From: Candidatus Woesebacteria bacterium
GTDB taxonomy: Bacteria; Patescibacteriota; Microgenomatia; UBA8517
DNA: 64,000 bases
Assembly: GCA_963716475.1 (NCBI GenBank)
Contig: OY970314.1
Span: forward strand, 854,508-918,507
Direction of reading: 5' to 3'
The position numbers were made by a program, and so were the translations under genes. This document shows positions 5,363-60,200 of this stretch, piece after piece. The notes beneath the pieces are model-generated. The model was not told where the DNA came from and made no database searches. It saw nothing but the letters and a program-made list of their open reading frames with translations. Every line of letters begins with the position of its first letter. The stretch's first letter is position 1.

Positions 5363-5710
5363 TTATATTGCCAGATTGAGATGAAGTATGTCAACGTGGA
5401 AGAAGGCGTTAATAAGAGCAACAATGGCCCAAGCGGCAAAGACTATGACAAGCCCAACAAGAGCAGCCGTAATCTGGTTTCTTGCACCCTCCGTTTGTGC
5501 TTTATCTCCACCCGAGGCGATCCAGCGGATCCCGCCTACAACGAGCATAAAGAAGAAAATAATAGCGGCGATTATTACCAGAAACCTTACGATGATAGTA
5601 ATAATGCCAGGAAAATCAAGTGTGCCAAGATTAGCAAATTGACCAGTTGGCTGAAGATTGACCTGTGTATTGCCTATTTGTGCGATTAAGTTTTTCATCT
5701 GCATAGTCAT
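5363..5710 (-). CDS. Small two-TM-helix membrane protein, VirB2/TrbC pilin-like paralog 7
   Basis: Motif GIRWIASGGDKAQTEGARNQITAALVGLVIVFAAWAIVALI. Same family as its neighbours. Confidence 0.5.
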   Translation of the reverse strand: MTMQMKNLIAQIGNTQVNLQPTGQFANLGTLDFPGIITIIVRFLVIIAAIIFFFMLVVGGIRWIASGGDKAQTEGARNQITAALVGLVIVFAAWAIVALINAFFHVDILHLNLAI

Positions 5711-5832
5711 TATGGAATCACTAAACTCGTCTTGTCAAGGGCCAATTATGACTCGCAAATCCATATTATGGTTTAAACAGGGCGGTGAGTTGTGGCAGTT
5801 GGAATGCATGGAGTTGGGACAGGGCATACTGC

Positions 5833-6156
5833 TCAGCCAAGGGTGGGCAAGGTAAGTTTTAACAGATTTACATTAAAGAACACGCCGACCAACTGAATTA
5901 TTGCGAACACCGCCAAAAGAATTACAAGTCCTATCAAAGCGCTTGTAATGGTTCCTCTAGCATCTTCAAGCTTCTGTTTATCTCCGCTTGAGGCAATCCA
6001 TTTTATGGCGCCGATTAAAAGCATGAAGAAAAAGATAATCACACCGATTATAAAACCCCATTGGATAGCGTAGGGTATAAACTTTTGCACCAAAGCCAAC
6101 CCGGCACTGCCGGATGATCCGCCGGCGGGGGAAGGTAATATTGGATTTGTTATCAT
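5833..6156 (-). CDS. Small two-TM-helix membrane protein, VirB2/TrbC pilin-like paralog 6
   Basis: Motif AIKWIASSGDKQKLEDARGTITSALIGLVILLAVFAII. The N-terminus is Gly/Ser-rich. Confidence 0.5.
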   Translation of the reverse strand: MITNPILPSPAGGSSGSAGLALVQKFIPYAIQWGFIIGVIIFFFMLLIGAIKWIASSGDKQKLEDARGTITSALIGLVILLAVFAIIQLVGVFFNVNLLKLTLPTLG

Positions 6157-6167
6157 TATTGCTGTGC

Positions 6168-6548
6168 CTACAGGTTAGCTATTATATTGAAAAGGTTTTG
6201 AATATTCAAAATACCGGTTAGGCCCAGCAAGGAGCCGACAAACTCGATTATTACAAGGGCGACAAGAACCACGACCAAGCCTATTATCCCCATAGTGATT
6301 CTTCTCCTGGCGCTCTCCAGGGCTTGCTTATCGCCCCCGGAGCTTATGATACTTATGGCGCCCGTAATAATACTAAATATTGCCCAGATAATGGCGACAA
6401 TTGTCGTTACCCCAATTACTGCAGAAATGAACTTGGAAAAAACAGTGACAGCTCCCCCGGACCCGATAGGATTATCCAAGGGTCCGTTACCGGGGCCTTT
6501 AAGCCCACCACCCGGATATAGAGGGATGTCTGCCAATAGATTTGTCAT
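6168..6548 (-). CDS. Small two-TM-helix membrane protein, VirB2/TrbC pilin-like paralog 5
   Basis: Motif SIISSGGDKQALESARRRITMGIIGLVVVLVALVII with a Gly/Pro-rich N-terminal region. The start is trimmed to the internal Met (MTNLLADIPLYPGGG) so the overlap with the upstream gene becomes ATGA-type. The ORF track gives 6168..6680. Confidence 0.45.
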   Translation of the reverse strand: MTNLLADIPLYPGGGLKGPGNGPLDNPIGSGGAVTVFSKFISAVIGVTTIVAIIWAIFSIITGAISIISSGGDKQALESARRRITMGIIGLVVVLVALVIIEFVGSLLGLTGILNIQNLFNIIANL

Positions 6549-6898
6549 GGAAAGGTTGGAATTGTTGGTTTCAGGATAAATGTCGGATCTTTGAATATTA
6601 GCTCGCCGAATATTGCGGCTAAAACAAAGGCTCCGGCTGCAAATGCCAGTCCCAGGGCTGTTTGCCAAATTTTTGCCCAAGCCCCGGCGACCTTTTTGGG
6701 ATCGTCTCCGGCAGACATAAAAGCGTATCCGGCCAAAATAAAATTAAACAAGGCATAGACTCCGGCACCAACAATTAAAATCCAAATAACGGATTGTATC
6801 AATTTCCCTATTGCGGCACCCGGGGTTGGTGCATACGTTGCAAGCGAACCCGGCAAGGTTACATTGCCAAAGGGGTTTTGTGCTAAATAATGAATCAT
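6545..6898 (-). CDS. Small two-TM-helix membrane protein, VirB2/TrbC pilin-like paralog 4
   Basis: Motif FMSAGDDPKKVAGAWAKIWQTALGLAFAAGAFVLAAI. This is the most divergent copy. Confidence 0.45.
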   Translation of the reverse strand: MIHYLAQNPFGNVTLPGSLATYAPTPGAAIGKLIQSVIWILIVGAGVYALFNFILAGYAFMSAGDDPKKVAGAWAKIWQTALGLAFAAGAFVLAAIFGELIFKDPTFILKPTIPTFP

Positions 6899-6899
6899 T

Positions 6900-7199
6900 T
6901 TAAAAAATATTCGGTATTCCTAAAAGGGAACTTATTAATTTTACTATCCAATATGATGTGAATACAATAACAAAGCCGATTACGGCTGAAGTTATGGTTT
7001 TTTTTGCCTGTTCCGCTTTTTGGGGATCGTTTTGCCCGGCCGATCCTATCATTCCAATCCCTCCCATGATGAAAAAGAAAAGTAGAATCAATCCGGAAAG
7101 AATGAAGGCGACGTTTAGAAAAATGGTGACGAGCCTACTTACGCTATTAATACTTTGGAAACTTGATGTTCCGCCGAAAAGGGTATAACCGATATTCAC
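6900..7199 (-). CDS. Small two-TM-helix membrane protein, VirB2/TrbC pilin-like paralog 3
   Basis: Motif GMIGSAGQNDPQKAEQAKKTITSAVIGFVIVFTSYWIV. Confidence 0.5.
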   Translation of the reverse strand: MNIGYTLFGGTSSFQSINSVSRLVTIFLNVAFILSGLILLFFFIMGGIGMIGSAGQNDPQKAEQAKKTITSAVIGFVIVFTSYWIVKLISSLLGIPNIF

Positions 7200-7246
7200 A
7201 AGACTATTGTATTACGATGAACACATCTAGACAAGTCAAGTGTATG

Positions 7247-7603
7247 TTATGGAGGAGTCCCGAATACCTTTCCGAAAAGCGTATTCTGAAGGTTAAAGAG
7301 CTGACCGAATATCTGGACTATAAAAAAGGCAAAGATAATAATTACAAAACCAATCAGGGCATTGGTGATTTTGGCTTGTGCAGACTGCATAGCCTTGGGG
7401 TCACCCCTCGACAACATCATCTGCAACCCTCCTATCACCAAGTAAACTAAGAGAGCAATCCCAGCGGCACCAAAAATATAAGGAAGAAGAATTGATATTA
7501 ATTTTCCAATGTTTGGTATTGTAAATTGGAGAGGTATTCCGGCCAGGTTTTGGACCGCGTCAAAGTTTAGTGCTAATTGCATAGTATTATTAACCAAAGC
7601 CAA
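7247..7603 (-). CDS. Small two-TM-helix membrane protein, VirB2/TrbC pilin-like paralog 2
   Basis: Motif LQMMLSRGDPKAMQSAQAKITNALIGFVIIIFAFFIVQIF. Confidence 0.5.
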   Translation of the reverse strand: MALVNNTMQLALNFDAVQNLAGIPLQFTIPNIGKLISILLPYIFGAAGIALLVYLVIGGLQMMLSRGDPKAMQSAQAKITNALIGFVIIIFAFFIVQIFGQLFNLQNTLFGKVFGTPP

Positions 7604-8285
7604 ATACGTTTAATCCCAGTATATCAATTCCCAGAAATTTAAGTATAAAAACAGAGAAAATTAAAAGAATCAGGCCGGAAATTGCGGATGTTAAAAGTTC
7701 CTGACCGGCCTTGAGCCTCTCGGGATTCCCCGCAGCGGTCATAATCATGAATCCGGCGTATAGCATTAAGAGAAATGCAATACCTCCGCCTATGCCCACA
7801 GCCCATCGTAAAATATTTCCCAAAAAGACCTCAGGACTACTAAAGTCGATACAGCCGATGGCGGTATTAATACTATTTGCGCTACTGCAATTAAGGTTTG
7901 TTGTGTTGGGAGTTGGAGCTGGAGTTGTGTTGGGAGTTGGAGCTGGAGTTGTTTGCGGAACTGTATGACAGGTGATAGGAGGGCTGTCTCCAACGTGCCC
8001 CCAACAATATGGGGCACTAGAGCAGCATTGGATTGCTACGCATGACACACCATTTCCAGCACACGTGGCAGAGGGTTGTTGGCACTGGCACGTTGCCAGA
8101 CTGCCTGGCCCACCTACCGTTATTTGAACGACAACGCAGGGGAGGGTGCAGCCATAATTAGGATAACCAGTAAGTTCCATGCAACCCATCACGCTTGAAG
8201 GGCAGGCTGCTAGTGCAAAAACTTTCTGGGGTAATAAAAAAGAAATCAGTAGAAGTAATATGGAGAAAACAAATATTCTTTTCAT
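7590..8285 (-). CDS. Secreted Cys-rich domain + Pro/Thr linker fused to a VirB2/TrbC pilin-like C-terminal module (first gene of the operon)
   Basis: Signal peptide MKRIFVFSILLLLISFLLPQKVFALA. The ORF track starts 27 nt upstream at 8312. A Cys-rich ~100-aa domain is followed by TPAPTPNTTPAPTPNTT, encoded by a 24-bp tandem repeat at about 7900-7960. The C-terminus is AGFMIMTAAGNPERLKAGQELLTSAISGLILLIFSVFILKFL. Confidence 0.5.
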   Translation of the reverse strand: MKRIFVFSILLLLISFLLPQKVFALAACPSSVMGCMELTGYPNYGCTLPCVVVQITVGGPGSLATCQCQQPSATCAGNGVSCVAIQCCSSAPYCWGHVGDSPPITCHTVPQTTPAPTPNTTPAPTPNTTNLNCSSANSINTAIGCIDFSSPEVFLGNILRWAVGIGGGIAFLLMLYAGFMIMTAAGNPERLKAGQELLTSAISGLILLIFSVFILKFLGIDILGLNVFGFG

Positions 8286-8346
8286 TAAATATATTCTAGA
8301 GCAATTGGACAAAAACTAAAAGTATGGGCTGGTATATCGCACTCGT

Positions 8347-8366
8347 GCGATATTTCAACGTTCAAT
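8347..8366. promoter_or_regulatory. Palindromic operator-like site ATATCGCAC-TC-GTGCGATAT in a divergent promoter region
   Basis: Perfect 9-bp inverted repeat between the pilin-like operon (minus strand) and the SpoIID-like gene (plus strand). An extended -10 TGgTATAAT lies at about 8399-8409 on the plus strand. Near-identical half-sites recur at about 10230 and 10269. Confidence 0.45.
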
Positions 8367-8410
8367 TCAGGTCGGTCAAGCCCGTCATTTTTGAATGTTG
8401 GTATAATGGA

Positions 8411-10153
8411 ATGCCTATGCTATACAAATTTTCAATTTTCAGTTTTCAATTTTTCAATAAGTTTAAATTTTTATTGTTTGGAATTCTGATATTGTTTGGG
8501 ATTTGTTTTTTGAAGTATGGTTCCTTAACGAAAGCTCAGGAGTGCCCTGCAACCGATTATCAGTGCCAAATTGACGCTATTCAAAGAAGTATCGACGCCC
8601 TTTCCCCCGCCCAGCAAAAAAACAAGGAAGACCTGGCAGCTCTTAATAAGCAGCTTGCCGATTTAAATTCCAGAATTACAAAATTGACCTCGCAACTTAA
8701 AGTTCTTGAGAATCAAATAGTAGGAAGGGAAGAAGACTTGGCTTTTACAAAGGAAATTTTTGATGAGAAAGCTAAAGAACACTATACATTTTTGAGACTT
8801 TATGACCCGATTACCCCCTTTCTTTTTTCGGATACCGCGTCACAAGCCTTTCAGGAAATAACTCTCAGACAAAGAGCGGCTGATCAGGACAGAAAGACAA
8901 TGGAACAATACGCTGCCGATTTGTCAACGCTAAATTCTGACAAAGAAACCTTAACAAAAAATAAGACCAGTCTTTCCTCACTTCAGTCGCAGGTCGCCGA
9001 GAAGCAAAAGTTTTTGGCAGGTGAGGTTGCAAAAGTGGATACGTACCTCTCCAGTTTGTCATCTAAACAGCAGGAACTTCAGGCGTTGAAGGAGGGTGGT
9101 TTTTCGACGACCGTCGGAGACGTTCCGGCATCGGCTGAGCCTTGTTCCGGCAAACCCGGATCGTCAAATTTCTGTGATCCGGGATTTAGACCCGCATTTG
9201 CCGCTTTTTCCTACGGGGCGCCACATAGAAAAGGCATGAGTCAGTACGGTGCTTACGGGAGAGCCAAGTCGGGTCAGTCTGCTGAGGATATACTCCACGC
9301 CTACTATGGAGGGATAGAGATTAAGAAGGACTATGCGACCAATATAAATATCAAGGTCCAGGGTTATGGGACTGTTGATATCGAGACGTATGTAAAGCGT
9401 ATTTATGAGATGCCGGCAAGTTGGACTGACCACGATTCGGCTGCGCTTAAGGCTCAGGCGGTTGCCGCCAGAAGCTACGCCCTGGCCTACACGAATAATG
9501 GTGCGAATTCTATTTGTGCAACAGAAGCTTGTCAGGTATATAAACCGGTAAATAAAGGCGGTGCTTGGGATGCGGCGGTAGATGCCACGAAGGGATGGGT
9601 TTTGGTTTCGGGAGGAGCACCTTTTTCGGCATGGTATGCTTCCACAGCAGGGGGTTATACATTTAGCTATTCAGCTCAGGGCTACACTACTCCTAACTTT
9701 TGGGATACTCCGGGGGGACAGGGCGGTTGGCCCAATAGCGCCTACGAGATTGCCGGCGGTTCTCCGTGGTTTTATAAAGGCTGGTTTAAGAGTAGGTCCG
9801 GGGCTTCCTGTGGAAGATCAAACCCGTGGCTAACCTCAACCGAGATGGCGGACATTTTGAATGCCAGATATGTCCTTGATGGAAACGGAGACGTGAGTCG
9901 CATCTCGCCTGTGGGAGACTGCTGGGGGGGCAATCCCTATTCGGTATCTGATTTGCAGGGAATTGGCGGATATAGTTCGGTTTCGGGTGTATCTGTCGTA
10001 TATGGAAATGACGGGTCTACTTCAAGCGTTACTTTTTCGACAAATAAGGGTACTGTAAATCTTACCGGTTCTAAATTTAAGGAAGCCTTCAATCTTAGGG
10101 CTCCCGGATACATCGGACTGAAAAGTTCGTTATTCAATATAGAGAAGCTCTGA
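8411..10153 (+). CDS. SpoIID/LytB-domain protein (putative lytic transglycosylase) with N-terminal signal peptide and coiled-coil region
   Basis: C-terminal domain with FSYGAPHRKGMSQYGAYG and MPASWTDHDSAALKAQAVAARSYAL, matching SpoIID/LytB signature blocks. The N-terminal ~200 aa are heptad/coiled-coil-like (QLADLNSRITKLTSQLKVLENQ...). The start is trimmed to MPMLYKF after the promoter. The ORF track starts at 8324. Confidence 0.6.
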   Translation: MPMLYKFSIFSFQFFNKFKFLLFGILILFGICFLKYGSLTKAQECPATDYQCQIDAIQRSIDALSPAQQKNKEDLAALNKQLADLNSRITKLTSQLKVLENQIVGREEDLAFTKEIFDEKAKEHYTFLRLYDPITPFLFSDTASQAFQEITLRQRAADQDRKTMEQYAADLSTLNSDKETLTKNKTSLSSLQSQVAEKQKFLAGEVAKVDTYLSSLSSKQQELQALKEGGFSTTVGDVPASAEPCSGKPGSSNFCDPGFRPAFAAFSYGAPHRKGMSQYGAYGRAKSGQSAEDILHAYYGGIEIKKDYATNINIKVQGYGTVDIETYVKRIYEMPASWTDHDSAALKAQAVAARSYALAYTNNGANSICATEACQVYKPVNKGGAWDAAVDATKGWVLVSGGAPFSAWYASTAGGYTFSYSAQGYTTPNFWDTPGGQGGWPNSAYEIAGGSPWFYKGWFKSRSGASCGRSNPWLTSTEMADILNARYVLDGNGDVSRISPVGDCWGGNPYSVSDLQGIGGYSSVSGVSVVYGNDGSTSSVTFSTNKGTVNLTGSKFKEAFNLRAPGYIGLKSSLFNIEKL

Positions 10154-10202
10154 CACTCCGTGATTTCCACACTTCGTGACAGGTAAGCTCTAATAGGCAA
10201 AA

Positions 10203-10295
10203 TGTTATAACAAAAACAGGATTTTTGATATATCGCACGGGTGCGTTATAACAAAAAGGATTTTTGATATATCGCACGGGTGCGTTATAATCATC
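10203..10295 (+). repeat. Tandem ~40-bp direct repeat (2.3 copies), each carrying a -35/-10-like promoter and an operator half-palindrome
   Basis: The unit GTTATAACAAAAA(C)AGGATTTTTGATATATCGCACGGGTGC occurs twice, followed by GTTATAATCATCC. Each unit reads as TTGATA-N16-TATAAC, and the last copy reads TATAAT. Each unit embeds ATATCGCAC-GG-GTGCGTTAT. Confidence 0.6.
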
Positions 10296-10300
10296 CTAGA

Positions 10301-10876
10301 ATGCCTGACATATTTATTTCCCCTGATGAGTCGGGAAAAGGAGTCCTCGGTAAAAGTTTCTCCGCATTTTCCCTTTATCCGAGCGGTGTCGATTTTGAAA
10401 CCAGAGAAGACAAAGAAAAGATAATTCTTATGCTCCGGCAGCACCCGATTGTTAATGTTAGATGGATTTCTATGACAATCTTGCTTTTGACCGGTCCGTC
10501 GGTTCTGGGCCTTTTGGGAGTTTTTTCACTTCTTCCTGTGGGTTTTTCCCTTGTTATTACATTGGCATGGTATTTATTTACAAGCGCGTACGCAATCGAA
10601 AATTTCTTAAGTTGGTACTTCAATGTTTATTTCATAACGACAGAGGGGATAATCGATGTCGATTTTTTTAACTTGCTTGATAAAAGAGTGTCGGAAGCGG
10701 AGCTTGGCAGAATTCAGGATGTAAGTTATTCAACAAACGGAGCGTTGGGAACGACGCTGAATTTTGGTGATGTCCGGATCCAGACGGCAGCGGAAATACC
10801 GGAATTTAAGTTTGAGCTGGTACCAAATCCGGAAAAGGTGGCAAAAATTTTGGATGATTTGATAGACAAACATTAA
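10301..10876 (+). CDS. Membrane protein with bacterial PH (bPH_2/YdbT-like) domain
   Basis: Two TM helices, then IIDVDFFNLLDKRVSEAELGRIQDVSYSTNGALGTTLNFGDVRIQTA, typical of the membrane-flanked bPH_2 domain. The start is trimmed to MPDIFISP. The track ORF at 10280 would include the TATAAT box. Confidence 0.5.
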   Translation: MPDIFISPDESGKGVLGKSFSAFSLYPSGVDFETREDKEKIILMLRQHPIVNVRWISMTILLLTGPSVLGLLGVFSLLPVGFSLVITLAWYLFTSAYAIENFLSWYFNVYFITTEGIIDVDFFNLLDKRVSEAELGRIQDVSYSTNGALGTTLNFGDVRIQTAAEIPEFKFELVPNPEKVAKILDDLIDKH

Positions 10877-10877
10877 G

Positions 10878-11102
10878 GTGGAAAACATACTAACAAGTGG
10901 TTTTAATACTTGGATTTTGATAAAAGCACTTGCATTGGTGATTCTGGGGATGTATCTTATCTTTGCCTTTTTGATTACGCGGCAGGTAAAGCTTATGACG
11001 AGTACTTTGCGTTTGGGTTTTGATGCGCTTGCCAAGATTTTATCTTATCTCCATTTAGCTTTCGCAGTTTTAGTTTTTTTGGCTGCCTTGATAATTCTTT
11101 AG
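10878..11102 (+). CDS. Small membrane protein (2 TM), hypothetical
   Basis: 74-aa hydrophobic protein immediately after the bPH gene. Confidence 0.4.
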   Translation: MENILTSGFNTWILIKALALVILGMYLIFAFLITRQVKLMTSTLRLGFDALAKILSYLHLAFAVLVFLAALIIL

Positions 11103-11105
11103 ATA

Positions 11106-13001
11106 ATGTTAGAAATAATTAGTGCAAAAGTGACGGCCGCTCCGGGAGCCTCTGGGTGGGCACAGGTCCATGAGTTTACTTCGGATGACCCCGAACGTAG
11201 GCGCGTAAGAGGAAAACTTATCGCCGTTATTGCTACCAATAAAGCGGAAGAAGGGATTGATACAATCACATCCGGCAGGGAGATAATTAGCCGACTTCAC
11301 GAGGAGTACTTCGGCCCAAATGAGGGGAATCCTTTTGATTTATTGAGAGATGCTACCCAAAAAGTGGCGGATGAATTTGGAGAAGGCAAGGGAGAAGTAG
11401 AAATTGCGGCCTGCGCATTTGTTGAGGGAGTAATCTATTCGACAGCTTCGGGCGGAGCTCGGGTAATGATCTCCCGTGATAGCGCACTCGCTACCATCTT
11501 GGTAAGTGAAGATCGCGTTATTACAGCCTCGGGTTATCCAAAAGAAGGAGATCTTATGCTTCTTGCAACCAAAGCTTTTTTCCAAATGGTTTCCGCCGGT
11601 GTAGTAAAAACTGCTCTTGCAACGGGAAGTCCGGAGGCAGCAGCGGAAACATTTAATCCAATAATTCACGGAGCGGCAGGAAGCGGAAATGTCGGCGCGG
11701 TGGTTATGAAATTTAATAAAGAAAATGAAGCATTCAATTCTCGGGAAGCTGTTCAGTCCGAAGATCAAAAAGAAAAATTACCGGCTTCTCCCAAAGACAA
11801 GCCGGTAAATATTATCAGGCAAAGAGCAAGGGCCTTGTTTAGTAAATTTAGAAGTAAAATCCCGGAAAGAAGCATATATATAAAGTCCGGTATGGGAGAT
11901 GAGGTTACATCGCAGAGCAAAAAAATGACTTTTTCCGCCGGGGTGATCCTCCTTGTGATTCTTGTTATAAGTATTGGATTTGGCATAAGGCAGAAAAGCA
12001 TTAATGATTTAAAGAAGAAATATCAGGGAATTCTTCAAATTGCCCAAAGTGATGTCGATCAGGCAATCGCACTTGCCAGTGTAAGTCCGGACAAGTCCAG
12101 AGAACTGTTTATTGACAGCGAACAAAAGTTGAAACAGATTCAGGATCTTAAGGTTACGGACACTAAAGTTAATGATTTGCAAAAAAAGATTGAAGAGAGC
12201 AAAGGGGCAATACTCGGGGAGTACGACGGCACACCAACCCTCTTTCTTGATTTAAGTCTGCTTTCATCCGGATTTACGGGGGATGCTATTTCGGCTTCCG
12301 GAGGGAATATCTACATTCTTGATAAATCGGGGAAAAGAGTTGTAAGTGTTGGGGTAGATACCAAAAAAAGTAAGGTTGTAGCGGGACCTTCTGTAATTGA
12401 CAATGCGGCAGACCTTGCTGCCTATCAGGATACGGCTTATATTCTGGCTACAGACGGAATTTACCAAGTGGGTTTAGCTAAAACCAAGGTGATAGATAAA
12501 ACTTGGGCCGGGGACGCCCTGATTTCCGCTTTTGCCGGGAATATGTATGTTCTTGATAAAACTGGGAACCAGGTTTACAGATATTCGGGCCAAACCGGGG
12601 GTACATTTGGCCCGCAACAAAAATGGCTTTCGGCGTCAACTACGGCGAATTTCTCCGGTGCGGTCGCCTGGGGATTGGATGGAGCAGTTTATGTTTTATA
12701 CCCAAATTCCAGAGTACTTAAATATAGCCTTGGCTCCCCCCAGAACTTTTCAATTTCCGGGGTGCTACCCGAAATCGGCAATATTGATGCAATTTACGCC
12801 GATCCGGATAATCAAGACATTTATCTTTTGGACAAAGCCGGGAAACGCGTTGTCGCCATAGATAAAAAAGGGAATTACAAAGCCCAATATACAGACGATC
12901 AAATAGCCGCTGCTAAAAGTCTGGTGGTTTCAGAAGCACAAAAAGAAATAATACTTCTTACCGGAGACAAACTCCTCTCGATCGAGATCCGACACCTTTG
13001 A
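11106..13001 (+). CDS. Single-pass membrane protein with a cytoplasmic N-domain (possibly degenerate PP2C-like) and C-terminal beta-propeller-like repeats
   Basis: 631 aa with a TM at about residues 265-290 (FSAGVILLVILVISIGFGI). The C-terminus repeats GNIYILDKSGKRVVSV / NMYVLDKTGNQVYRY / DIYLLDKAGKRVVAID. The N-domain assignment is weak. Confidence 0.3.
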   Translation: MLEIISAKVTAAPGASGWAQVHEFTSDDPERRRVRGKLIAVIATNKAEEGIDTITSGREIISRLHEEYFGPNEGNPFDLLRDATQKVADEFGEGKGEVEIAACAFVEGVIYSTASGGARVMISRDSALATILVSEDRVITASGYPKEGDLMLLATKAFFQMVSAGVVKTALATGSPEAAAETFNPIIHGAAGSGNVGAVVMKFNKENEAFNSREAVQSEDQKEKLPASPKDKPVNIIRQRARALFSKFRSKIPERSIYIKSGMGDEVTSQSKKMTFSAGVILLVILVISIGFGIRQKSINDLKKKYQGILQIAQSDVDQAIALASVSPDKSRELFIDSEQKLKQIQDLKVTDTKVNDLQKKIEESKGAILGEYDGTPTLFLDLSLLSSGFTGDAISASGGNIYILDKSGKRVVSVGVDTKKSKVVAGPSVIDNAADLAAYQDTAYILATDGIYQVGLAKTKVIDKTWAGDALISAFAGNMYVLDKTGNQVYRYSGQTGGTFGPQQKWLSASTTANFSGAVAWGLDGAVYVLYPNSRVLKYSLGSPQNFSISGVLPEIGNIDAIYADPDNQDIYLLDKAGKRVVAIDKKGNYKAQYTDDQIAAAKSLVVSEAQKEIILLTGDKLLSIEIRHL

Positions 13002-13018: not shown

Positions 13019-13453
13019 ATGAAAATCTTTAACAAGAAAGCCAGATTTGAATACGAGCTATCGGGGGAAGGAGTTGAGGCCGGTGTCTCCCTTTTGGGAG
13101 CTGAGGCTAAGTCCGTACGTGAGGGAAGAGCAGACATTTCCCAGGCTGCAGTCAGAGTATTAGGTAATGAGGCTTATTTAATCAATGCCAATATCCCCGC
13201 CTTAGGTATCCAAAAATACAATTCGACTAGGATGAGAAAGCTCCTAATGCATAGGGGGGAAATTCTTTCACTGGTAACAAAAATGAAGCAAAAAAAGTTG
13301 CAAATCGTGCCTGTTCGGGTGTACAATAAGGGTCGCTTAATTAAACTCTATCTTGAGCTTGGAAAGGCCAAGCGTAAGTTTGAAAAGAAAGAGGCTCTTA
13401 AGCGCCACGACATAAACCGAGACATAGAAAAGGCAATGAAAGGTTCGATTTAA
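13019..13453 (+). CDS. smpB: SsrA-binding protein SmpB
   Basis: 144 aa with ARFEYELSGEGVEAGVSLLGAEAKSVREGRADISQAAV...RMRKLLMHRGEI...KGRLIKLYLELGKAKRKFEKKE, the canonical SmpB signature. tmRNA lies immediately downstream. Confidence 0.9.
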   Translation: MKIFNKKARFEYELSGEGVEAGVSLLGAEAKSVREGRADISQAAVRVLGNEAYLINANIPALGIQKYNSTRMRKLLMHRGEILSLVTKMKQKKLQIVPVRVYNKGRLIKLYLELGKAKRKFEKKEALKRHDINRDIEKAMKGSI

Positions 13454-13456
13454 GTC

Positions 13457-13822
13457 GGGGACGATCGGTTTCGACGGAAAGCTCTTTACAATACTGCAGG
13501 CAGACTTTGATCCTACGTCTTAATATTAGGGTTAAAAAATAAAAGCTAGGAATTTATTCCAAGCTCAACCTAGGTACGCGCAAGCGTTTGCCTAAGTTGC
13601 ATCCTGAGACCTGATTCTCGATCGGATCAACTGGGTGTAAACCATTCGAGATGCTACCTAGACTTTAATGATTTAAAGGTTTAGGTAAAAGACAAATAAA
13701 TCTTACCTTGAAATTTCTTGTTGGCTAGATAAGTTCAGGGAAAATTCAAAAACCAAATAAGCTTGTAGAAGTGTTGTTTGAAGTATTTTCGGACGCGGGT
13801 TCGATTCCCGCCGTCTCCACCA
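13457..13822 (+). ncRNA. ssrA: tmRNA (ssrA)
   Basis: The 5' end is GGGGACGATCGGTTTCGACGG. The 3' tRNA-like end is GGACGCGGGTTCGATTCCCGCCGTCTCCACCA. The candidate tag frame GCT...GCC TAA at about 13545-13595 would encode ARNLFQAQPRYAQAFA*, or AQPRYAQAFA* from a later resume codon. Confidence 0.85.
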
Positions 13823-14979: not shown

Positions 14980-15067
14980 CGGTGAGGGTGGGATTCGAAC
15001 CCACGGTAAGGAAGATCCCTACATTAGTTTTCAAGACTAACGCCATCGTCCACTCGGCCACCTCACC
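14980..15067 (-). tRNA. tRNA-Ser (anticodon TGA)
   Basis: Reverse complement GGTGAGGTGGCCGAGTGGACGATGGCGTTAGTCTTGAAAACTAATGTAGGGATCTTCCTTACCGTGGGTTCGAATCCCACCCTCACCG. Long variable arm. Anticodon loop CTTGAAA. Confidence 0.8.
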
Positions 15068-15156
15068 TGGGCGGAGGATGAGGGAGTCGAACCCACCGGC
15101 CACTTACGTGACCAAGGTTTAGCAAACCTTCGCCTTAGCCGCTCGGCATATCCTCC
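15068..15156 (-). tRNA. tRNA-Ser (anticodon GCT), CCA encoded
   Basis: Reverse complement GGAGGATATGCCGAGCGGCTAAGGCGAAGGTTTGCTAAACCTT...GGTGGGTTCGACTCCCTCATCCTCCGCCA. Anticodon loop TTGCTAA. Confidence 0.8.
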
Positions 15157-15182
15157 AAAAGGCAGTGCAATTATAACAGATT

Positions 15183-15761
15183 TTGAGGTATACTATGCGT
15201 GTCATGGATACTGCCAAAGGTCAAAAAACAGAGACAGAAAGCACTTTAAATGATGAACCGCAAGCCGTCGTTGTCAGGCGTGAGCCGGAACGGGATTTAG
15301 TTACCTGGATTGCTCCCGGAAGGCCTTTTAGAAGACGCGACAGGCAGTTTTATGTTACGACCTTTGCCATAGCCGGAATTGTCAGTCTGATTCTTTTTCT
15401 GGCCGAGGGGATAATGCCCGTTATTTTGATTATTTCTCTGGTATTTTTATACTACGTTCTTTCGACCGTTCAGCCGGATAATGTTGAATACAAAATAACC
15501 ACGAAAGGGATTAAAATCGCAGGCAAACTTACGGAGTGGCAATATCTGAACCGCTACTGGTTTTCGAAAAGGTTTGAGAGTGAGCTTATGATCGTTGATA
15601 CGGTTTTGCTTCCCGGCAGGATTGAATTTGTAATAAACCCGGAAGTTAAAGTGGAACTTAAAAAAGAGGTTTCTGCCTACATTCCGTATGAGGAGGTTCC
15701 TCCAGCCGCCCTGGATAAAATTACGAACTGGTTTGCAGCCAAGTTGCCGGGGAATAAATAA
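15183..15761 (+). CDS. Hypothetical membrane protein (2 TM)
   Basis: 192 aa with a central hydrophobic pair (FAIAGIVSLILFLAEGIMPVILIISLVFLYYVL). No recognisable motif. Confidence 0.4.
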   Translation: MRYTMRVMDTAKGQKTETESTLNDEPQAVVVRREPERDLVTWIAPGRPFRRRDRQFYVTTFAIAGIVSLILFLAEGIMPVILIISLVFLYYVLSTVQPDNVEYKITTKGIKIAGKLTEWQYLNRYWFSKRFESELMIVDTVLLPGRIEFVINPEVKVELKKEVSAYIPYEEVPPAALDKITNWFAAKLPGNK

Positions 15762-15833
15762 GCCCTCGTAGCTCAACGGATCGAGCACTGGTTTGCGGAA
15801 CCAATGATATCAGTTCAATTCTGATCGAGGGCA
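15762..15833 (+). tRNA. tRNA-Arg (anticodon read as GCG)
   Basis: GCCCTCGTAGCTCAACGGATCGAGCACTGGTTTGCGGAACCAATGATATCAGTTCAATTCTGATCGAGGGCA. Cloverleaf with loop TTGCGGA. Confidence 0.7.
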
Positions 15834-15863
15834 CTTGCGTAATATCTGGAGGTCTCGCAATTT

Positions 15864-15948
15864 GGAGGGTTCGCATAGCGGCCAATTGCACGAGTTTCGA
15901 AAACTCGAGGGAGTAATCCCTACACAGGTTCAAATCCTGTACCCTCCG
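15864..15948 (+). tRNA. tRNA-Ser (anticodon CGA)
   Basis: GGAGGGTTCGCATAGCGGCCAATTGCACGAGTTTCGAAAACTCGAGGGAGTAATCCCTACACAGGTTCAAATCCTGTACCCTCCG. Long variable arm. Confidence 0.8.
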
Positions 15949-16070
15949 CTCGTCGTAACTAAACATTGCTAACCGTTTCTCAAAACTAAAAGTTTTAGAA
16001 ACTAGCGCAAGTTTGTTACTCCTCTCGAAATTGCGGTGCAATTTCGTTTGGGAGCATAGACACAATAATC

Positions 16071-16523
16071 ATGAACAACAAGAATAATCAGCAAATAACA
16101 GTAGGGGGAGCGATAGTTTTTAGGGATAATCGTGGAAAACGTCAGTTTTTGCTTGTAAAAACAAAGGATGAAGGAGACTGGGAAATCCCCAAGGTTATCG
16201 TAAGAAAAGGCGAGTCATCTGTGCGTTCCGTAATCAGACTAACCGGGGAACAGGGAGGAATGACGGCCAGGGTGCTTGAGGAAGCTGGAAGAGCAACCGG
16301 AACGACTATTCTAAACGGTAAGTCCATTCCCCAGAAGTATTATTACTATATTATGCTTCAAAGAGGAGGGCCGAGCGAGCTTATCGGGTTCGCGGAATTT
16401 AAATGGCTGGAGTACGCGGAAGCGGTGAAAAGGGTAATCCTTAAAAGAGAGAAAGACATGTTTAAATTGGCGCGTGAGGTTTTAAAACAGTGGGAAAAAA
16501 CGCACAAAATCAAACTATATTAA
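16071..16523 (+). CDS. Nudix-fold protein with degenerate Nudix box
   Basis: 150 aa. GESSVRSVIRLTGEQGG only loosely matches Gx5Ex7REUxEExGU. Confidence 0.4.
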   Translation: MNNKNNQQITVGGAIVFRDNRGKRQFLLVKTKDEGDWEIPKVIVRKGESSVRSVIRLTGEQGGMTARVLEEAGRATGTTILNGKSIPQKYYYYIMLQRGGPSELIGFAEFKWLEYAEAVKRVILKREKDMFKLAREVLKQWEKTHKIKLY

Positions 16524-17011
16524 ACCGTGAGTTTTCTTCGGGTGGGGCCGTCTTCAGGGGTGATGAATGGTTGATAACAAGATCGTCTGCAAGCAAACTC
16601 TATCCTAAAGCAATTTGGAGACTTCCGAAAGGTTGGATCGATAATGTTACACCTGAAATTCCCGGACCAATGGCAAGCGGAAAGCTGAGGGCTGATGAAG
16701 AGTCGCTGCAAAAAGGTGCCCTGCGGGAAGTGAGAGAAGAAGGAGGAATTGAAGCTAAGATTGTTAAAAAGATCGGAACAGCGAAGTATTTTTTTAACGC
16801 GCCCGATAAAGGTAGAATCTTAAAGTTTGTTACATTTTATTTAATGGAATATGTAGGTGATTTACCGGAGGGTTATGATGAAGAAACATCCGAGATCGCC
16901 TGGTTGCCATTTGAAGAAGCCTATAAAAAACTTTCTTTCTCGGGTGAAAAGCAAATACTCAAAAAAGCGAAAGAACTTCTGGCCCCCGTAGCTCAACGGA
17001 TAAGCAAATAG
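16490..17011 (+). CDS. Nudix hydrolase
   Basis: Nudix box EESLQKGALREVREEGGI. The last ~9 codons (APVAQRISK*) are encoded by a tRNA-like 5' fragment. Confidence 0.65.
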   Translation: MGKNAQNQTILNREFSSGGAVFRGDEWLITRSSASKLYPKAIWRLPKGWIDNVTPEIPGPMASGKLRADEESLQKGALREVREEGGIEAKIVKKIGTAKYFFNAPDKGRILKFVTFYLMEYVGDLPEGYDEETSEIAWLPFEEAYKKLSFSGEKQILKKAKELLAPVAQRISK

Positions 17012-17047
17012 CTTGTCGGTTGTTCTACAGGTGCTCATTAGAAATTC

Positions 17048-17119
17048 GCCCCCGTAGCTCAACGGATAGAGTAGGAGTTTCCGGAACTTCTGATAGGTGT
17101 TCAATTCACCTCGGGGGCA
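17048..17119 (+). tRNA. tRNA-Arg (anticodon CCG)
   Basis: GCCCCCGTAGCTCAACGGATAGAGTAGGAGTTTCCGGAACTTCTGATAGGTGTTCAATTCACCTCGGGGGCA. Its first 21 nt are duplicated at about 16982-17002. Confidence 0.8.
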
Positions 17120-17243
17120 CACTCGGTACAGAATCAGTTATAATACAATTTCTGGAGGAGTCACATAAGTAAACTTCGCCCAATGGCGTAAGTCTACTCT
17201 TTGCTTTGCAAAGAGATCTTGGGTGACTTTTCTTTAAAATCTG

Positions 17244-17325
17244 GAGGAGTCACCTAGCGGCTATGGTACGCGCTTGGAAAGCGCGCGGGCGTAAGCCCTC
17301 GCGGGTTCGAGTCCCGCCTCCTCCG
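17244..17325 (+). tRNA. tRNA-Ser (anticodon GGA)
   Basis: GGAGGAGTCACCTAGCGGCTATGGTACGCGCTTGGAAAGCGCGCGGGCGTAAGCCCTCGCGGGTTCGAGTCCCGCCTCCTCCG. Long variable arm. Its 5' end (TCTGGAGGAGTCAC) is duplicated at about 17147-17161. Confidence 0.8.
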
Positions 17326-25968: not shown

Positions 25969-26041
25969 TTCCCCGGTAGCTCAGCGGTAGAGCGGATTCC
26001 TGTTAAGAATAAGGTCGCTGGTCCGAATCCAGCCCGGGGAG
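25969..26041 (+). tRNA. tRNA-Asn (anticodon GTT)
   Basis: TCCCCGGTAGCTCAGCGGTAGAGCGGATTCCTGTTAAGAATAAGGTCGCTGGTCCGAATCCAGCCCGGGGAG. U1-A72, as in bacterial tRNA-Asn. Confidence 0.8.
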
Positions 26042-27754: not shown

Positions 27755-28153
27755 ATGGATACAAATAAAAGGTTTAAAACTGTTCGTTTGCTGGTCGCCT
27801 TATTCGTCGGCGTGACCGTTGCGGTTGCAGTGATTCAAAACAGCTATTTATTGGCTGTGGCGGGAGTTGTATCTGGAATGCTGTTCATGATAGTAATGCG
27901 TTCTAAGGCAAAAATTACGGTTGACGAGCGGGAAAAGACCGTTCGGGAGAAAGCCGCCCAGCTGACCTATGCTATTTTTGCACCAACGATGGGACTAAAC
28001 GCATTTATACTGACCATATTTGGTAGAAATAACCCCACAATGGAGGCCACCGGACAAACATTGTCTTACCTCACTTTGTTTTTAATCATTTTGTACGCTA
28101 TCTCCTACCGAATAGTTAACAAAAAACTTGGGGGCGGCGATTATGAAAAATAA
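27755..28153 (+). CDS. Small membrane protein (DUF2178-like), partner of the downstream XRE regulator
   Basis: 132 aa with 4 predicted TM helices. The overlapping downstream HTH gene gives the typical membrane-protein + XRE pairing. Confidence 0.45.
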   Translation: MDTNKRFKTVRLLVALFVGVTVAVAVIQNSYLLAVAGVVSGMLFMIVMRSKAKITVDEREKTVREKAAQLTYAIFAPTMGLNAFILTIFGRNNPTMEATGQTLSYLTLFLIILYAISYRIVNKKLGGGDYEK

Positions 28154-28358
28154 GCAGAGCTTGTTGCTTCGCAATAAACTTAAGGTTTATAGAGCAATGC
28201 GTGACCTAACCCAGGAGCAACTTGCTGATAAGTTGGGTGTCACCCGGCAGACGATTATTGCAATTGAGAGTGACAAATATTTACCGTCATTATCTTTAGC
28301 TTTCAGACTTTCCCAACTTTTCAACTGTAAAATAGAGGACCTCTTTGTAATTTCTTAA
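28128..28358 (+). CDS. XRE-family helix-turn-helix transcriptional regulator
   Basis: LTQEQLADKLGVTRQTIIAIESDKYLPSLSLAFRLSQLF, a Cro/C1-type HTH. Confidence 0.8.
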   Translation: MGAAIMKNKQSLLLRNKLKVYRAMRDLTQEQLADKLGVTRQTIIAIESDKYLPSLSLAFRLSQLFNCKIEDLFVIS

Positions 28359-52285: not shown

Positions 52286-52951
52286 GTGAAGAAACTTTCA
52301 TCACCTTTTGACTTAATTAAAAAAGCAGTTGATATCTTTGTAAAAAAGGAAAATCTTCTTTTTCTGGTCAAAATTTACATACCGGTAGCGGTTTTTTCTG
52401 TAATATCCATTGCCCAGTCATTTTTACCCTCCTCAATTAAAGATTCAAACTCGATCTGGCTGACAGTCGTGGTAGGGATACTTCAAATACTTTCTCTTCT
52501 AACGGGCGTATTTGTTACCGTGTCGGGGATAATTGCCTTGGGGAAGATTGCGGACGGTGGTGAATTGTCACAGGAAAAGACTTACAAAGCTGCCTGGAAA
52601 AAATACTGGGTGTTACTACTTTTAGGAATTGTTCTTAGTTTTGCTTATTTAATCGGTTTTATACTCCTTATTATCCCGGGGATTCTCTTTGTCGTCTGGT
52701 TTGCCTTTAGCCGGTTTTTGGCGGTTGAAAGGGGCTTGGGCATTAAGGAGGCATTATTGAAAAGCAAGGAACTGGTAAAAGGAGCTTACTGGAAAATACT
52801 CGGAAGACTTATCGTTTTTGGTGCTTTTACAGCAATTGTCGAAGTGGTTTTAAGTGCACTCCCTTACGGTGTGGGGTCAATTTTGGCGAGTCTTGGCGGA
52901 GGACTTTTTATGCTTCCTTCGTATCTTCTATATAGGGAACTTAGCGCCTAA
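52286..52951 (+). CDS. Hypothetical polytopic membrane protein
   Basis: 221 aa, about 6 TM. Confidence 0.4.
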   Translation: MKKLSSPFDLIKKAVDIFVKKENLLFLVKIYIPVAVFSVISIAQSFLPSSIKDSNSIWLTVVVGILQILSLLTGVFVTVSGIIALGKIADGGELSQEKTYKAAWKKYWVLLLLGIVLSFAYLIGFILLIIPGILFVVWFAFSRFLAVERGLGIKEALLKSKELVKGAYWKILGRLIVFGAFTAIVEVVLSALPYGVGSILASLGGGLFMLPSYLLYRELSA

Positions 52952-55250: not shown

Positions 55251-55297
55251 TTAGCTGCGAATTGTAGCAGTAAACCAGGGGGAAAGACAGCCTAAAG

Positions 55298-59541: not shown

Positions 59542-59765
59542 TTCGACTTATCGCTTCATTTTTTTATACCTTTTTGCAGAGTTTTTAAATTGTCGTTTCT
59601 CAATTACCGCAAAAACTTCAGGAATTGTCAAAAAGTTAGCCATACCTCATGCGTAAGGTGATATATTTTGTATAAAATCTTACTAGTTGACAGTCTAGTG
59701 GTAGTGTTTAACAATCATTGTCATCACTAATTGTAGAGTTTTTACTTTACATGCGTGAAATGTAT

Positions 59766-60200
59766 ATGAAATGTCCTTTTTGCGGTGCGGCCGACACAAG
59801 TGTTTTAGAAAGCAGGACGGTTGACGACGGAAGTTCGATCAGAAGGCGAAGGGAATGTGCAAAATGTGGTAAGCGGTTCACAACCATAGAGGAGGTAAGA
59901 AGAAGTTTTCTCTGGGTGATCAAGAAAGACGGCAGGCGTGAAGTCTTTGACAAAGAGAAGGTAAAAAGAGGTATCCTAAGGGCTATCGAAAAACGCCCGG
60001 TTTCACTCGATCTCGTTGATGACATCACCGATCAAGTTGAAATGGAGATGCTAAGAAGCGACAAGCAGGAGATCCCGACCCGTGTCATTGGAAACGCAGT
60101 TTTAAAGAGGCTAAAGAAGGTTGATAAAGTAGCCTGGCTTAGGTTTGCAAGCGTTTACCTTGAGTTTACTGATTTAAGCGATTTTGAAAAATTAATATAA
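59766..60200 (+). CDS. nrdR: Transcriptional repressor NrdR
   Basis: MKCPFCGAADTSVLESR...RRRECAKCGKRFTT zinc ribbon plus an ATP-cone. The start is trimmed from the track ORF (59718). Confidence 0.9.
   Translation: MKCPFCGAADTSVLESRTVDDGSSIRRRRECAKCGKRFTTIEEVRRSFLWVIKKDGRREVFDKEKVKRGILRAIEKRPVSLDLVDDITDQVEMEMLRSDKQEIPTRVIGNAVLKRLKKVDKVAWLRFASVYLEFTDLSDFEKLI

What the first reader, a model, noticed from the sequence alone, without database searches (positions are those of the whole stretch)
8347..10295. Shared palindromic operator ATATCGCAC-NN-GTGCG(A/T)TAT at three promoters
A perfect palindrome ATATCGCAC-TC-GTGCGATAT lies in the short divergent region between the pilin-like operon and the SpoIID-like gene. 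Near-identical copies (ATATCGCAC-GG-GTGCGTTAT) occur twice in the tandem promoter repeat upstream of the bPH-domain membrane protein gene, and there they overlap the -10 box. This suggests a single dimeric regulator co-controls the pilin locus, the cell-wall hydrolase and the downstream membrane proteins.
Basis: seen in the sequence. Interest (0 to 1): 0.65.

Follow-up and report, generated by a model that had tools for sequence, protein, structure and literature searches.

The report
Lineage-specific palindrome inside two inserted promoters
A 20-base palindrome really does sit at two neighbouring promoter regions (one of them duplicated) next to a pilin gene array in an uncultivated Microgenomates bacterium. 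It looks like the binding site of an unknown repressor, but it is a recent insertion confined to this lineage, not a conserved regulatory system.

Summary
The sequence observation is correct. ATATCGCAC-NN-GTGCG(A/T)TAT lies at 8334-8353, 10230-10249 and 10269-10288, and nowhere else in the 64 kb (0 expected by chance). The last two copies belong to a 39-nt tandem repeat, so there are only two independent sites.

At both sites the palindrome fills the 16-nt spacer of a -35/-10 module, TTGAWA-N16-TATAMY.
- Site B: the proximal copy is the near-consensus, leaderless-type promoter of the bPH-DUF5657-631aa operon.
- Site A: the module points at the pilin array, not at SpoIID. Its -10 (TATACC) is poor, and it lies upstream of the conserved native promoters of both divergent genes.

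About 45 syntenic Microgenomates loci were compared. Both sites are insertions absent from all close relatives. Site A is a 69-nt insert flanked by a 7-nt direct repeat of the SpoIID -10 box. Only one distant relative (L114) carries the palindrome, at the bPH gene. Another (L159) has the same promoter with the palindrome broken.

No regulator gene, transposase or known RNA family is associated with the sites. A scan of 185,579 species genomes gave only chance-level hits.

Best reading (about 50%): the operator of an unidentified dimeric repressor, carried on a copied promoter module. Interest is modest.

The parts
8334..8353 (.). Site A palindrome ATATCGCAC-TC-GTGCGATAT (perfect 9+9, 2-nt centre)
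   Evidence: Dyad score is 12/18 at centre 8343.5. Single-strand DNA hairpin -6.5 kcal/mol, z = -3.1.
8331..8358 (-). Promoter-like module at site A on the minus strand: TTGAAA (8358-8353), 16-nt spacer that is the palindrome, TATACC (8336-8331). It points at the pilin array. The -10 lacks the conserved final T, so it is probably weak.
   Evidence: 23 of 26 bases match the site B module in blastn-short. The consensus promoter scan does not call it.
8337..8405 (+). 69-nt insertion relative to all relatives. It is flanked by the 7-nt direct repeat TGGTATA (8330-8336 and 8399-8405), which splits and then regenerates the SpoIID extended -10 box.
   Evidence: Alignment A1. Relatives read GGCTGGTATAATG or GGGCTGATATAATG without interruption.
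8293..8298 (-). Native -10 box (TAGAAT) of the pilin array, 7 nt before ATG 8285. It is conserved in relatives.
8399..8407 (+). Native extended -10 box (TGGTATAAT) of the SpoIID-like gene, 9 nt before ATG 8417.
   Evidence: Public gene calls also use the start at 8417.
10204..10290 (+). 39-nt tandem repeat, 2.2 copies, carrying two copies of the promoter module.
   Evidence: Tandem Repeats Finder.
10230..10249 (.). Site B distal palindrome ATATCGCAC-GG-GTGCGTTAT. It extends to the 36-bp dyad TTTTTGATATATCGCAC-GG-GTGCGTTATAACAAAAA. It lies between TTGATA (10225-10230) and TATAAC (10247-10252).
   Evidence: Dyad score 15/18, tied for the highest in the window. Hairpin -8.2 kcal/mol, z = -4.2.
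10264..10291 (+). Proximal promoter of the bPH operon: TTGATA, 16-nt spacer (palindrome 10269-10288), TATAAT, then 9 nt to ATG 10301 (leaderless type).
   Evidence: 11 of 12 consensus matches.
5833..8285 (-). Array of VirB2-like T4SS_pilin (PF18895) genes, the putative target of site A.
   Evidence: Pfam. Such arrays are described for Microgenomatia in PMC12102498.
8417..10153 (+). SpoIID-domain protein with a coiled-coil N-terminal part. It lies between the two sites and has its own promoter.
   Evidence: Pfam.
10301..13001 (+). Putative target operon of site B: bPH_2 membrane protein (10301-10876), DUF5657 (10878-11102) and a 631-aa protein with no Pfam hit (11106-13001).
   Evidence: Pfam. 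Synteny holds in more than 25 lineages.

Best explanation
The 20-bp dyad is a real cis-element specific to this lineage. It fills the 16-bp spacer of a sigma-70-type promoter module (TTGAWA-N16-TATAMY). It is most likely the operator of an unidentified dimeric DNA-binding repressor.

SHOWN:
- The module is present at two adjacent places in a conserved gene block (pilin array <-> SpoIID -> bPH -> DUF5657 -> 631-aa protein).
- At both places it is an insertion relative to every close relative.
- At site B the proximal copy is the near-consensus, leaderless-type promoter of the bPH operon, and the unit has been duplicated in tandem.
- At site A the module faces the pilin array but has a poor -10. 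It lies upstream of the conserved native promoters.

INFERRED:
- A dimer bound at site B would cover the DNA from the last base of the -35 to the third base of the -10. It would exclude RNA polymerase and so repress the bPH operon.
- The same protein bound at site A would modulate the pilin array, either by blocking the added upstream promoter or by acting from about -59.
- The SpoIID-like gene is probably not a direct target.
- The element probably spread between the two sites by copying of a short promoter segment, not by independent point mutation.
For: - Dyad symmetry is 9-2-9, so half-site centres are 11 bp apart, about one helical turn.
- There are three copies against 0 expected, and none elsewhere in 64 kb even with mismatches allowed.
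- The two independent sites share 23 of 26 bases. One of the three differences falls on the central dinucleotide.
- Site B is an 11/12 consensus promoter with the dyad as its spacer. At least 20 genes in the window have the same leaderless layout, and none of those has this spacer.
- The two sites flank one gene inside a block whose synteny is conserved in more than 25 lineages.
- The 46-nt cassette is about 89% identical, and its spacer 14/16 identical, between the window and L114. Third codon positions of the adjacent gene are only 49% identical between them.
- L159 is closer to L114 (third positions 56% identical). It keeps the -35, the -10 and the upstream A-tract, but only 11/16 of the spacer, and has lost the dyad. 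The palindrome therefore behaves as a separately constrained add-on to the promoter.
- There is no terminator-like feature and no Rfam family at the sites.
Against: - No protein binding has been shown and no regulator identified. The only classical transcription factors in the window are an Xre HTH_3 protein (28128-28358) and NrdR (59718-60200). Neither is adjacent, and the HTH_3 operon's own promoter lacks the motif.
- With only two independent sites, no regulon can be defined.
- The motif is absent at both sites from all close relatives: L162/L163, L108/L109, L107, L147, L148, L160. It is also absent from L144, whose bPH protein is 97% identical to that of L114.
- At site A the dyad overlaps neither native core promoter, and its own -10 (TATACC) lacks the key final T.
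- The 36-bp extent of the dyad at site B is longer than a typical operator. That fits an origin by DNA-level inverted duplication.
- Identity between A and B could simply reflect recent copying.
Confidence: 0.5

Rival explanations
1. The palindrome is a by-product of how a promoter allele was built and copied. Possible routes are inverted duplication or fold-back, followed by microhomology-mediated insertion at TATA boxes and unequal crossing-over. No protein reads the dyad. The shared sequence at A and B reflects recent copying, and the match to L114 reflects lateral exchange of promoter alleles by recombination.
For: - Both sites are derived insertions whose junctions lie in -10 boxes. Site A has 7-nt TGGTATA direct repeats, and the site B units are bounded by GTTATAA.
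- The whole 39-nt unit at B is dyad-symmetric, 15/18 at two centres, which is more than a typical operator needs.
- L114 and L144 are 92% identical in the bPH gene but cannot be aligned upstream of TATAAT. That marks a recombination breakpoint at the -10 box.
- The bPH promoter is a rearrangement hot spot with many lineage-specific alleles.
- L159 works as a promoter allele without the dyad.
Against: - It does not explain why the copied segment is a near-perfect GC-cored palindrome.
- It does not explain why the core is better kept between distant lineages (14/16) than between the closer pair L114 and L159 (11/16).
- There is no elevated identity in the coding sequence next to the cassette, as a recent transfer would predict.
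Confidence: 0.22
2. It is a miniature non-autonomous mobile element, a portable -35 plus hairpin cassette. It inserts at TATA-type -10 boxes with a 7-bp target duplication and creates hybrid promoters.
For: - Site A is a clean 69-nt insertion with the 7-nt direct repeat TGGTATA.
- At both sites the GC core abuts a TATA that comes from the target box.
- The cassette supplies a -35 at the right distance from that TATA.
- The distribution among lineages is patchy.
Against: - The 62-nt insert has no terminal inverted repeats (read).
- The only copies lie 1.9 kb apart; there are none elsewhere in the 64 kb or in about 340 kb of related DNA, where the cassette occurs only in front of bPH orthologues.
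- The window has no transposase or recombinase gene.
- A and B share only 26 nt.
- At site B, 50 nt of unrelated sequence precede the first GTTATAA, so a target duplication is not demonstrable there.
Confidence: 0.1
3. It is an RNA-level hairpin acting on transcripts that read through from the SpoIID gene, or from the distal repeat unit, into the bPH gene. It would act as an attenuator, a processing site or a stabiliser.
For: - The stem is kept in L114 through a C-to-T change that would give a G-U pair.
- The hairpins fold better than shuffled sequence, z = -2.3 to -4.2.
- In the tandem arrangement the proximal copy would be transcribed from the distal unit.
Against: - No U-tract follows the stem on either strand, and the terminator scan finds nothing there.
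- No Rfam match even at E <= 1.
- The proximal copy lies upstream of its own promoter's start point.
- At site A the dyad lies upstream of both native start points.
- There is only one compensatory-type change, in a single sequence.
Confidence: 0.06
4. It is a chance resemblance with no meaning.
For: Only two independent sites exist. The AT-rich outer parts of the arms are partly forced by the -35 and -10 hexamers.
Against: - 0 matches in 100 shuffles.
- The site A dyad is the only perfect 9+9 palindrome found in the window, and the site B dyads have the two highest dyad scores.
- The same core recurs in L114 at the orthologous place.
Confidence: 0.01

Closest known systems
Repressor operators that overlap the -35/-10 spacer of a sigma-70 promoter (for example Cro/CI-type, TetR-type and ArsR/SmtB '12-2-12' operators; named from general knowledge, not tested here)
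   Same: An inverted repeat of about 20 bp with half-sites one helical turn apart and a non-conserved centre. At site B it lies exactly over the core promoter. It recurs at more than one promoter.
   Different: No cognate regulator is known or encoded nearby. Only two independent sites exist. Neither is conserved in sister lineages. At site A it lies upstream of the native promoters. Both sites arrived by insertion, not by point mutation.
MerR-family operators (a dyad inside the promoter spacer, activating by DNA distortion; general knowledge)
   Same: The dyad is centred in the spacer between the -35 and -10.
   Different: MerR-type promoters have over-long spacers of 19-20 bp. Here the spacer is 16 bp, so activation by untwisting is not expected.
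Putative mobile promoters (Matus-Garcia, Nijveen and van Passel 2012, PMC3488235)
   Same: A promoter segment is reused in front of non-homologous genes in one genome and shared between distant lineages.
   Different: Those were defined as 50-100 nt at 80% identity or more. Here the within-genome match is only 26 nt. The 46-nt match between lineages is in front of the same (orthologous) gene.
IS- or MITE-borne outward promoters forming hybrid promoters with a target -10, for example Neisseria Correia elements (general knowledge)
   Same: The inserted DNA supplies a -35, the target supplies the TATA, and direct repeats flank the insert at site A.
   Different: No terminal inverted repeats, no dispersed copies and no transposase. 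The insert is far shorter than known MITEs.
Symmetric or bidirectional bacterial promoters (general knowledge; not checked in the library)
   Same: Many orthologous bPH promoters show TGAT-ATA-ATCA symmetry around the -10. The extended dyad at B reads as -35/-10-like on both strands.
   Different: The GC core CGCAC/GTGCG is not part of any promoter consensus, so promoter symmetry does not explain it.

Membership tests
Transcription-factor operator (dimeric HTH repressor site) | Dyad symmetry with half-sites about 10-11 bp apart | tested here: met
   9-2-9 palindrome: perfect at A, 8/9 at B.
Transcription-factor operator (dimeric HTH repressor site) | Overlap with the RNA-polymerase contact elements of the regulated promoter | tested here: inconclusive
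   Met at site B: the dyad spans from the last base of the -35 to the third base of the -10. Not met at site A for the native pilin and SpoIID promoters (dyad centre about -59 and -74). It is met there only for a weak TTGAAA-16-TATACC module.
Transcription-factor operator (dimeric HTH repressor site) | Recurrence at several promoters of one genome (a regulon) | tested here: inconclusive
   Two independent sites in 64 kb, about 6.5% of a 983-kb genome. The rest of the genome could not be read.
Transcription-factor operator (dimeric HTH repressor site) | Conservation at orthologous promoters of related genomes | tested here: not met
   Absent from all close relatives at both sites. Present only in L114 and degenerate in L159, among about 45 loci.
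Transcription-factor operator (dimeric HTH repressor site) | A cognate DNA-binding protein that binds the site | not testable with these tools
   The only Pfam hits to DNA-binding regulators in the window are Xre HTH_3 and NrdR, with no link to the motif. Binding needs EMSA or DAP-seq.
MITE / miniature transposable element | Terminal inverted repeats | tested here: not met
   The ends of the 62-nt insert at A (TCGCACTCG... / ...TTTGAATGT) are not inverted copies of each other.
MITE / miniature transposable element | Target-site duplication | tested here: inconclusive
   7-nt TGGTATA repeats at A. At B the GTTATAA repeats are explained equally well by the tandem repeat.
MITE / miniature transposable element | Multiple dispersed copies | tested here: not met
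   No other copy in the window or in about 340 kb of related loci.
Putative mobile promoters (PMC3488235) | 50-100 nt at 80% identity or more, upstream of non-homologous genes | tested here: not met
   The A-B match is 26 nt. The criterion is taken from the abstract read.
MerR-type promoter/operator | Spacer of 19-20 bp containing the dyad | tested here: not met
   The spacer is 16 bp at both sites.
Intrinsic terminator | GC-rich stem-loop followed by a T-run | tested here: not met
   The terminator scan of 7900-10700 finds none at the dyads. The flanks read TTATAAC / ATATTTCAAC.
Known RNA family (Rfam 15) | Covariance-model match | tested here: not met
   No match at gathering thresholds and none at E <= 1 over 8200-10400.
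REP/REPIN-type repeats or DNA uptake sequences | Tens to thousands of copies per genome | tested here: not met
   Three copies at two sites in 64 kb.

The most novel reading that the evidence does not exclude
The two sites are footprints of a so-far undescribed kind of tiny promoter cassette in CPR (Candidate Phyla Radiation) bacteria: a -35 box plus a GC-cored hairpin, 30-60 nt long. It would insert at the TATA of leaderless -10 boxes with a 7-bp duplication, and so rewire or add regulated promoters, carrying its own operator with it.
Probability: 0.1. Interest if true: 0.7.

Novelty: new member of a known kind. Interest (0 to 1): 0.3.

Why it matters
Almost nothing is known about transcription control in Patescibacteria. 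VirB2-like pilin arrays are abundant in Microgenomatia and were reported as essential in one cultivated Saccharibacterium (PMC12102498). A defined 20-bp candidate operator next to such an array gives a concrete DNA bait for finding a regulator. The comparative result is also useful. The promoters of this conserved envelope gene block turn over quickly by insertion and recombination at the -10 box. Regulatory motifs read from a single CPR genome should therefore not be assumed to be conserved. The practical value is limited: the organism is uncultivated, only two independent sites are known, and no regulator is in sight.

Tried and rejected
1. Genome-wide regulon scan. TATCGCACNNGTGCGWTA was searched across 185,579 species genomes and gave 105 stretches spread over all phyla. 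My rough estimate for a uniform-composition model is several hundred, so this is at or below chance. The contexts are coding sequence, terminator hairpins or unrelated operators. The window's own genome is evidently not in that collection.
2. Viral contig scan: 9 unrelated hits.
3. Rfam at gathering and permissive thresholds: nothing at the sites.
4. Terminator reading: rejected.
5. MITE, REP and mobile-promoter readings. These fail on terminal inverted repeats, copy number and length.
6. Nearby regulator. Pfam was run on about 65 of the 76 long ORFs picked. It found only Xre HTH_3, NrdR and RpoD, and no transposase or recombinase.
7. Lineage-specific dyads shared between the two intergenic regions in other lineages: none found.
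8. Inferring the regulator family from the same palindrome in unrelated phyla (L018, L025, L003, L060). The contexts were heterogeneous and uninformative, so I dropped this.
9. Naming the organism from cluster members. No names were returned. Assignment to Microgenomates rests on homologue names.
10. A look-up of the SpoIID protein from ATG 8411 failed. The start at 8417 is the one on record.
Full report
**Observation.** The palindrome is present as described. ATATCGCAC-TC-GTGCGATAT lies at 8334-8353, and ATATCGCAC-GG-GTGCGTTAT at 10230-10249 and 10269-10288. No match occurred in 100 dinucleotide-preserving shuffles. The finding's start coordinate (8347) falls inside the first copy. Looser searches find no further copy in the 64 kb. 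The last two copies belong to a 39-nt tandem repeat of 2.2 units at 10204-10290, so there are two independent sites. I call them A (8334-8353) and B. A separate public assembly of run ERR12035932 is identical over 5417-10247 and resumes in the second repeat unit. The sites are therefore real, although the repeat copy number rests on the window alone.

**Setting.**
- Pfam identifies an array of VirB2-like T4SS_pilin genes on the minus strand (5833-8285).
- On the plus strand follow a SpoIID-domain protein (8417-10153), a bPH_2 membrane protein (10301-10876), a DUF5657 protein (10878-11102) and a 631-aa protein with no Pfam hit.
- Homologue names place the genome in the Microgenomates group of Patescibacteria. 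The locus lies on a 982,852-nt contig.
- Pilin arrays of this kind are reported as especially abundant in Microgenomatia (PMC12102498).
- At least 20 genes in the window carry a TATAAT-like box 5-11 nt before the ATG. This organism therefore appears to use sigma-70-type promoters with leaderless or nearly leaderless mRNAs (inference from sequence).

**Anatomy.** The similarity between A (read on the minus strand) and B (plus strand) extends to 26 nt, TTGAWATATCGCACGRGTGCGWTATA, with 23 of 26 bases matching. This is a -35 hexamer, a 16-nt spacer and the start of a -10. The palindrome runs from the last base of the -35 to the third base of the -10.

- *Site B.* The proximal unit is an 11/12 consensus promoter: TTGATA 10264-10269 and TATAAT 10286-10291, 9 nt before ATG 10301. 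The distal unit ends in TATAAC, which lacks the conserved final T. With its flanks the distal dyad extends to 36 bp (TTTTTGATATATCGCAC-GG-GTGCGTTATAACAAAAA). Its score of 15/18 is one of the two highest dyad scores in the window. The other lies 19.5 nt away and follows from the 39-nt periodicity.
- *Site A.* The module faces the pilin array, not SpoIID. Its -10 is TATACC, which lacks the final T. It lies upstream of the native promoters, which are conserved in relatives: pilin TAGAAT 8293-8298 before ATG 8285, and SpoIID TGGTATAAT 8399-8407 before ATG 8417. If transcription starts at the ATGs, the dyad centre is at about -59 from the pilin start and -74 from the SpoIID start.

**Comparative evidence.** One metagenome scan gave 37 syntenic loci. 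Protein look-ups added about ten more. The order pilin array <-> SpoIID -> bPH -> DUF5657 -> large protein is conserved throughout.

- In nearly all loci the bPH -10 box follows the SpoIID stop codon within about 12 nt.
- In all loci that cover it, the SpoIID -10 box reads GGCTGGTATAATG or a close variant without interruption.
- This includes the closest relatives: L162/L163 (SpoIID about 81% nucleotide identity), L108/L109, L107, L147, L148 and L160.
- Relative to them, site A is a 69-nt insertion. It is bounded by the 7-nt direct repeat TGGTATA (8330-8336 and 8399-8405), which splits and regenerates the SpoIID -10 box.
- Site B is part of an insertion of about 133 nt between the SpoIID stop codon and the TATAAT.

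The palindrome recurs in only one other locus, L114 (ATATCGCAT-GT-GTGCGTTAT), again in front of bPH. There a 46-nt cassette is about 89% identical to the window's, and the spacer is 14/16 identical. Third codon positions of the adjacent gene are only 49% identical.

L159 is closer to L114 and has the same cassette. Its spacer is only 11/16 identical and the dyad is gone.

The bPH protein of L144 is 97% identical to that of L114, yet L144 lacks the cassette. The two sequences stop aligning exactly at the TATAAT, which marks a recombination breakpoint.

The cassette occurs nowhere else in about 340 kb of related DNA. Other lineages carry other, unrelated dyads over the same -10 box.

**What it is not.**
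- No terminator-like feature at the sites.
- No Rfam family, even at permissive thresholds.
- No terminal inverted repeats, no dispersed copies, and no transposase or recombinase in the window.
- The within-genome match is too short for the published definition of mobile promoters.
- The spacer is 16 bp, not the 19-20 bp of MerR-type promoters.
- A scan of one genome per species across bacteria and archaea gave 105 scattered hits in unrelated contexts. By a rough uniform-composition estimate that is no more than chance. The motif is therefore not a widespread operator.

**Interpretation.** The dyad is non-random and sits where a repressor would be most effective at site B. It is restricted to two adjacent operons of one conserved block. 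It is kept between two distant lineages far above the neutral level, and lost in a closer lineage that retains the rest of the promoter. These points favour a protein-binding operator, which I put at about 0.5.

Against this reading:
- no regulator is identified;
- there are only two independent sites;
- neither site is conserved in sister lineages;
- site A does not overlap a native core promoter;
- both sites are insertions whose junctions lie in -10 boxes.

That last point also fits simple copying of a promoter allele whose palindrome arose at the DNA level (about 0.22), or a tiny mobile cassette (about 0.1). An RNA hairpin role is weakly possible (about 0.06). Chance is excluded.

It is not supported for the SpoIID-like gene, and 'three promoters' is an overcount.

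**Novelty and value.** If the element is an operator, it is an ordinary kind of element in an organism group where no operator has been characterised. That makes it a new member of a known kind, of modest interest (0.3). The most novel reading still open is a portable promoter/operator cassette that targets -10 boxes (probability about 0.1). The decisive computation is a scan of the full 983-kb genome, which these tools could not reach. The decisive experiment is EMSA or DAP-seq combined with reporter assays using a scrambled core.

Noticed in passing
window, e.g. 4935(-), 8285(-), 8417, 10301, 13019, 20767, 27755, 34260, 35251: At least 20 genes have a TATAAT-like box only 5-11 nt before the ATG and no Shine-Dalgarno sequence in between. 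The genome therefore seems to rely heavily on leaderless mRNAs.
   Followed up: partly
window 8427-8458; L112 6255-6350; L107 3790-3850; L160 1650-1710: The 5' coding region of the SpoIID-like gene carries a heptamer tandem repeat, AATTTTC x4.4. At or near the same place, orthologues carry different short repeats. In L112 these are GTACAGA units followed by inverted TTCGTAC units. Their function is unknown.
   Followed up: no
L148 330-360, L149 1-26, L160 1700-1731, L135 7960-7990, L132 1915-1940: Other Microgenomates lineages have their own, unrelated dyads over or next to the bPH -10 box. Examples: CGCAGATTATA-gatga-TATAATCTGCG, TAGGAT-gaTATAATt-ATCCTA, TAGAATT-cccc-AATTCTA and CACT-caga-AGTG. 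This promoter is a hot spot for palindromic alleles.
   Followed up: partly
L114 600-735 versus L144 3100-3225: The two loci are 92% identical in the bPH gene but cannot be aligned upstream of the TATAAT box, including the 3' end of SpoIID. That marks a recombination breakpoint at the -10 box.
   Followed up: partly
window 13019-13822: The SmpB gene is immediately followed by the tmRNA gene (13457-13822). Seven tRNA genes lie at 14980-17325 and 25970-26041.
   Followed up: no
window 27755-28358: A DUF2178 membrane protein plus an Xre-type HTH_3 regulator form an operon with a TTGACA-N17-TATACT promoter. This is the only classical HTH regulator in the window, and its promoter lacks the palindrome.
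   Followed up: partly
L032 4084-4101, L075 6976-6993, L077 2398-2415: One Elusimicrobiaceae genome (RGIG5124) carries TATCGCACnnGTGCGATA three times, inside a longer dispersed repeat (...GTTTATCGCACnnGTGCGATAgnCnACGGCTGTT). It looks like a REP-type repeat unrelated to the window.
   Followed up: no
L115 5725-6150 (also L118): One lineage has an extra gene of about 140 aa inserted between the pilin array and the SpoIID-like gene. The extra gene has taken over the GGCTGGTATAATG promoter.
   Followed up: no
L025 6525-6575: An unrelated MAG (SUG1264) has TTATAACGCACGAGTGCGATATAAT over a -10 box. It follows a terminator hairpin and precedes a gene that has a Shine-Dalgarno site. This is a near-identical palindrome and probably an independent operator.
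   Followed up: partly
window 52941-57520: Two adjacent class A penicillin-binding protein genes (transglycosylase plus transpeptidase domains) lie on the minus strand. NrdR and a ribonucleotide reductase follow at 59718-62645.
   Followed up: no
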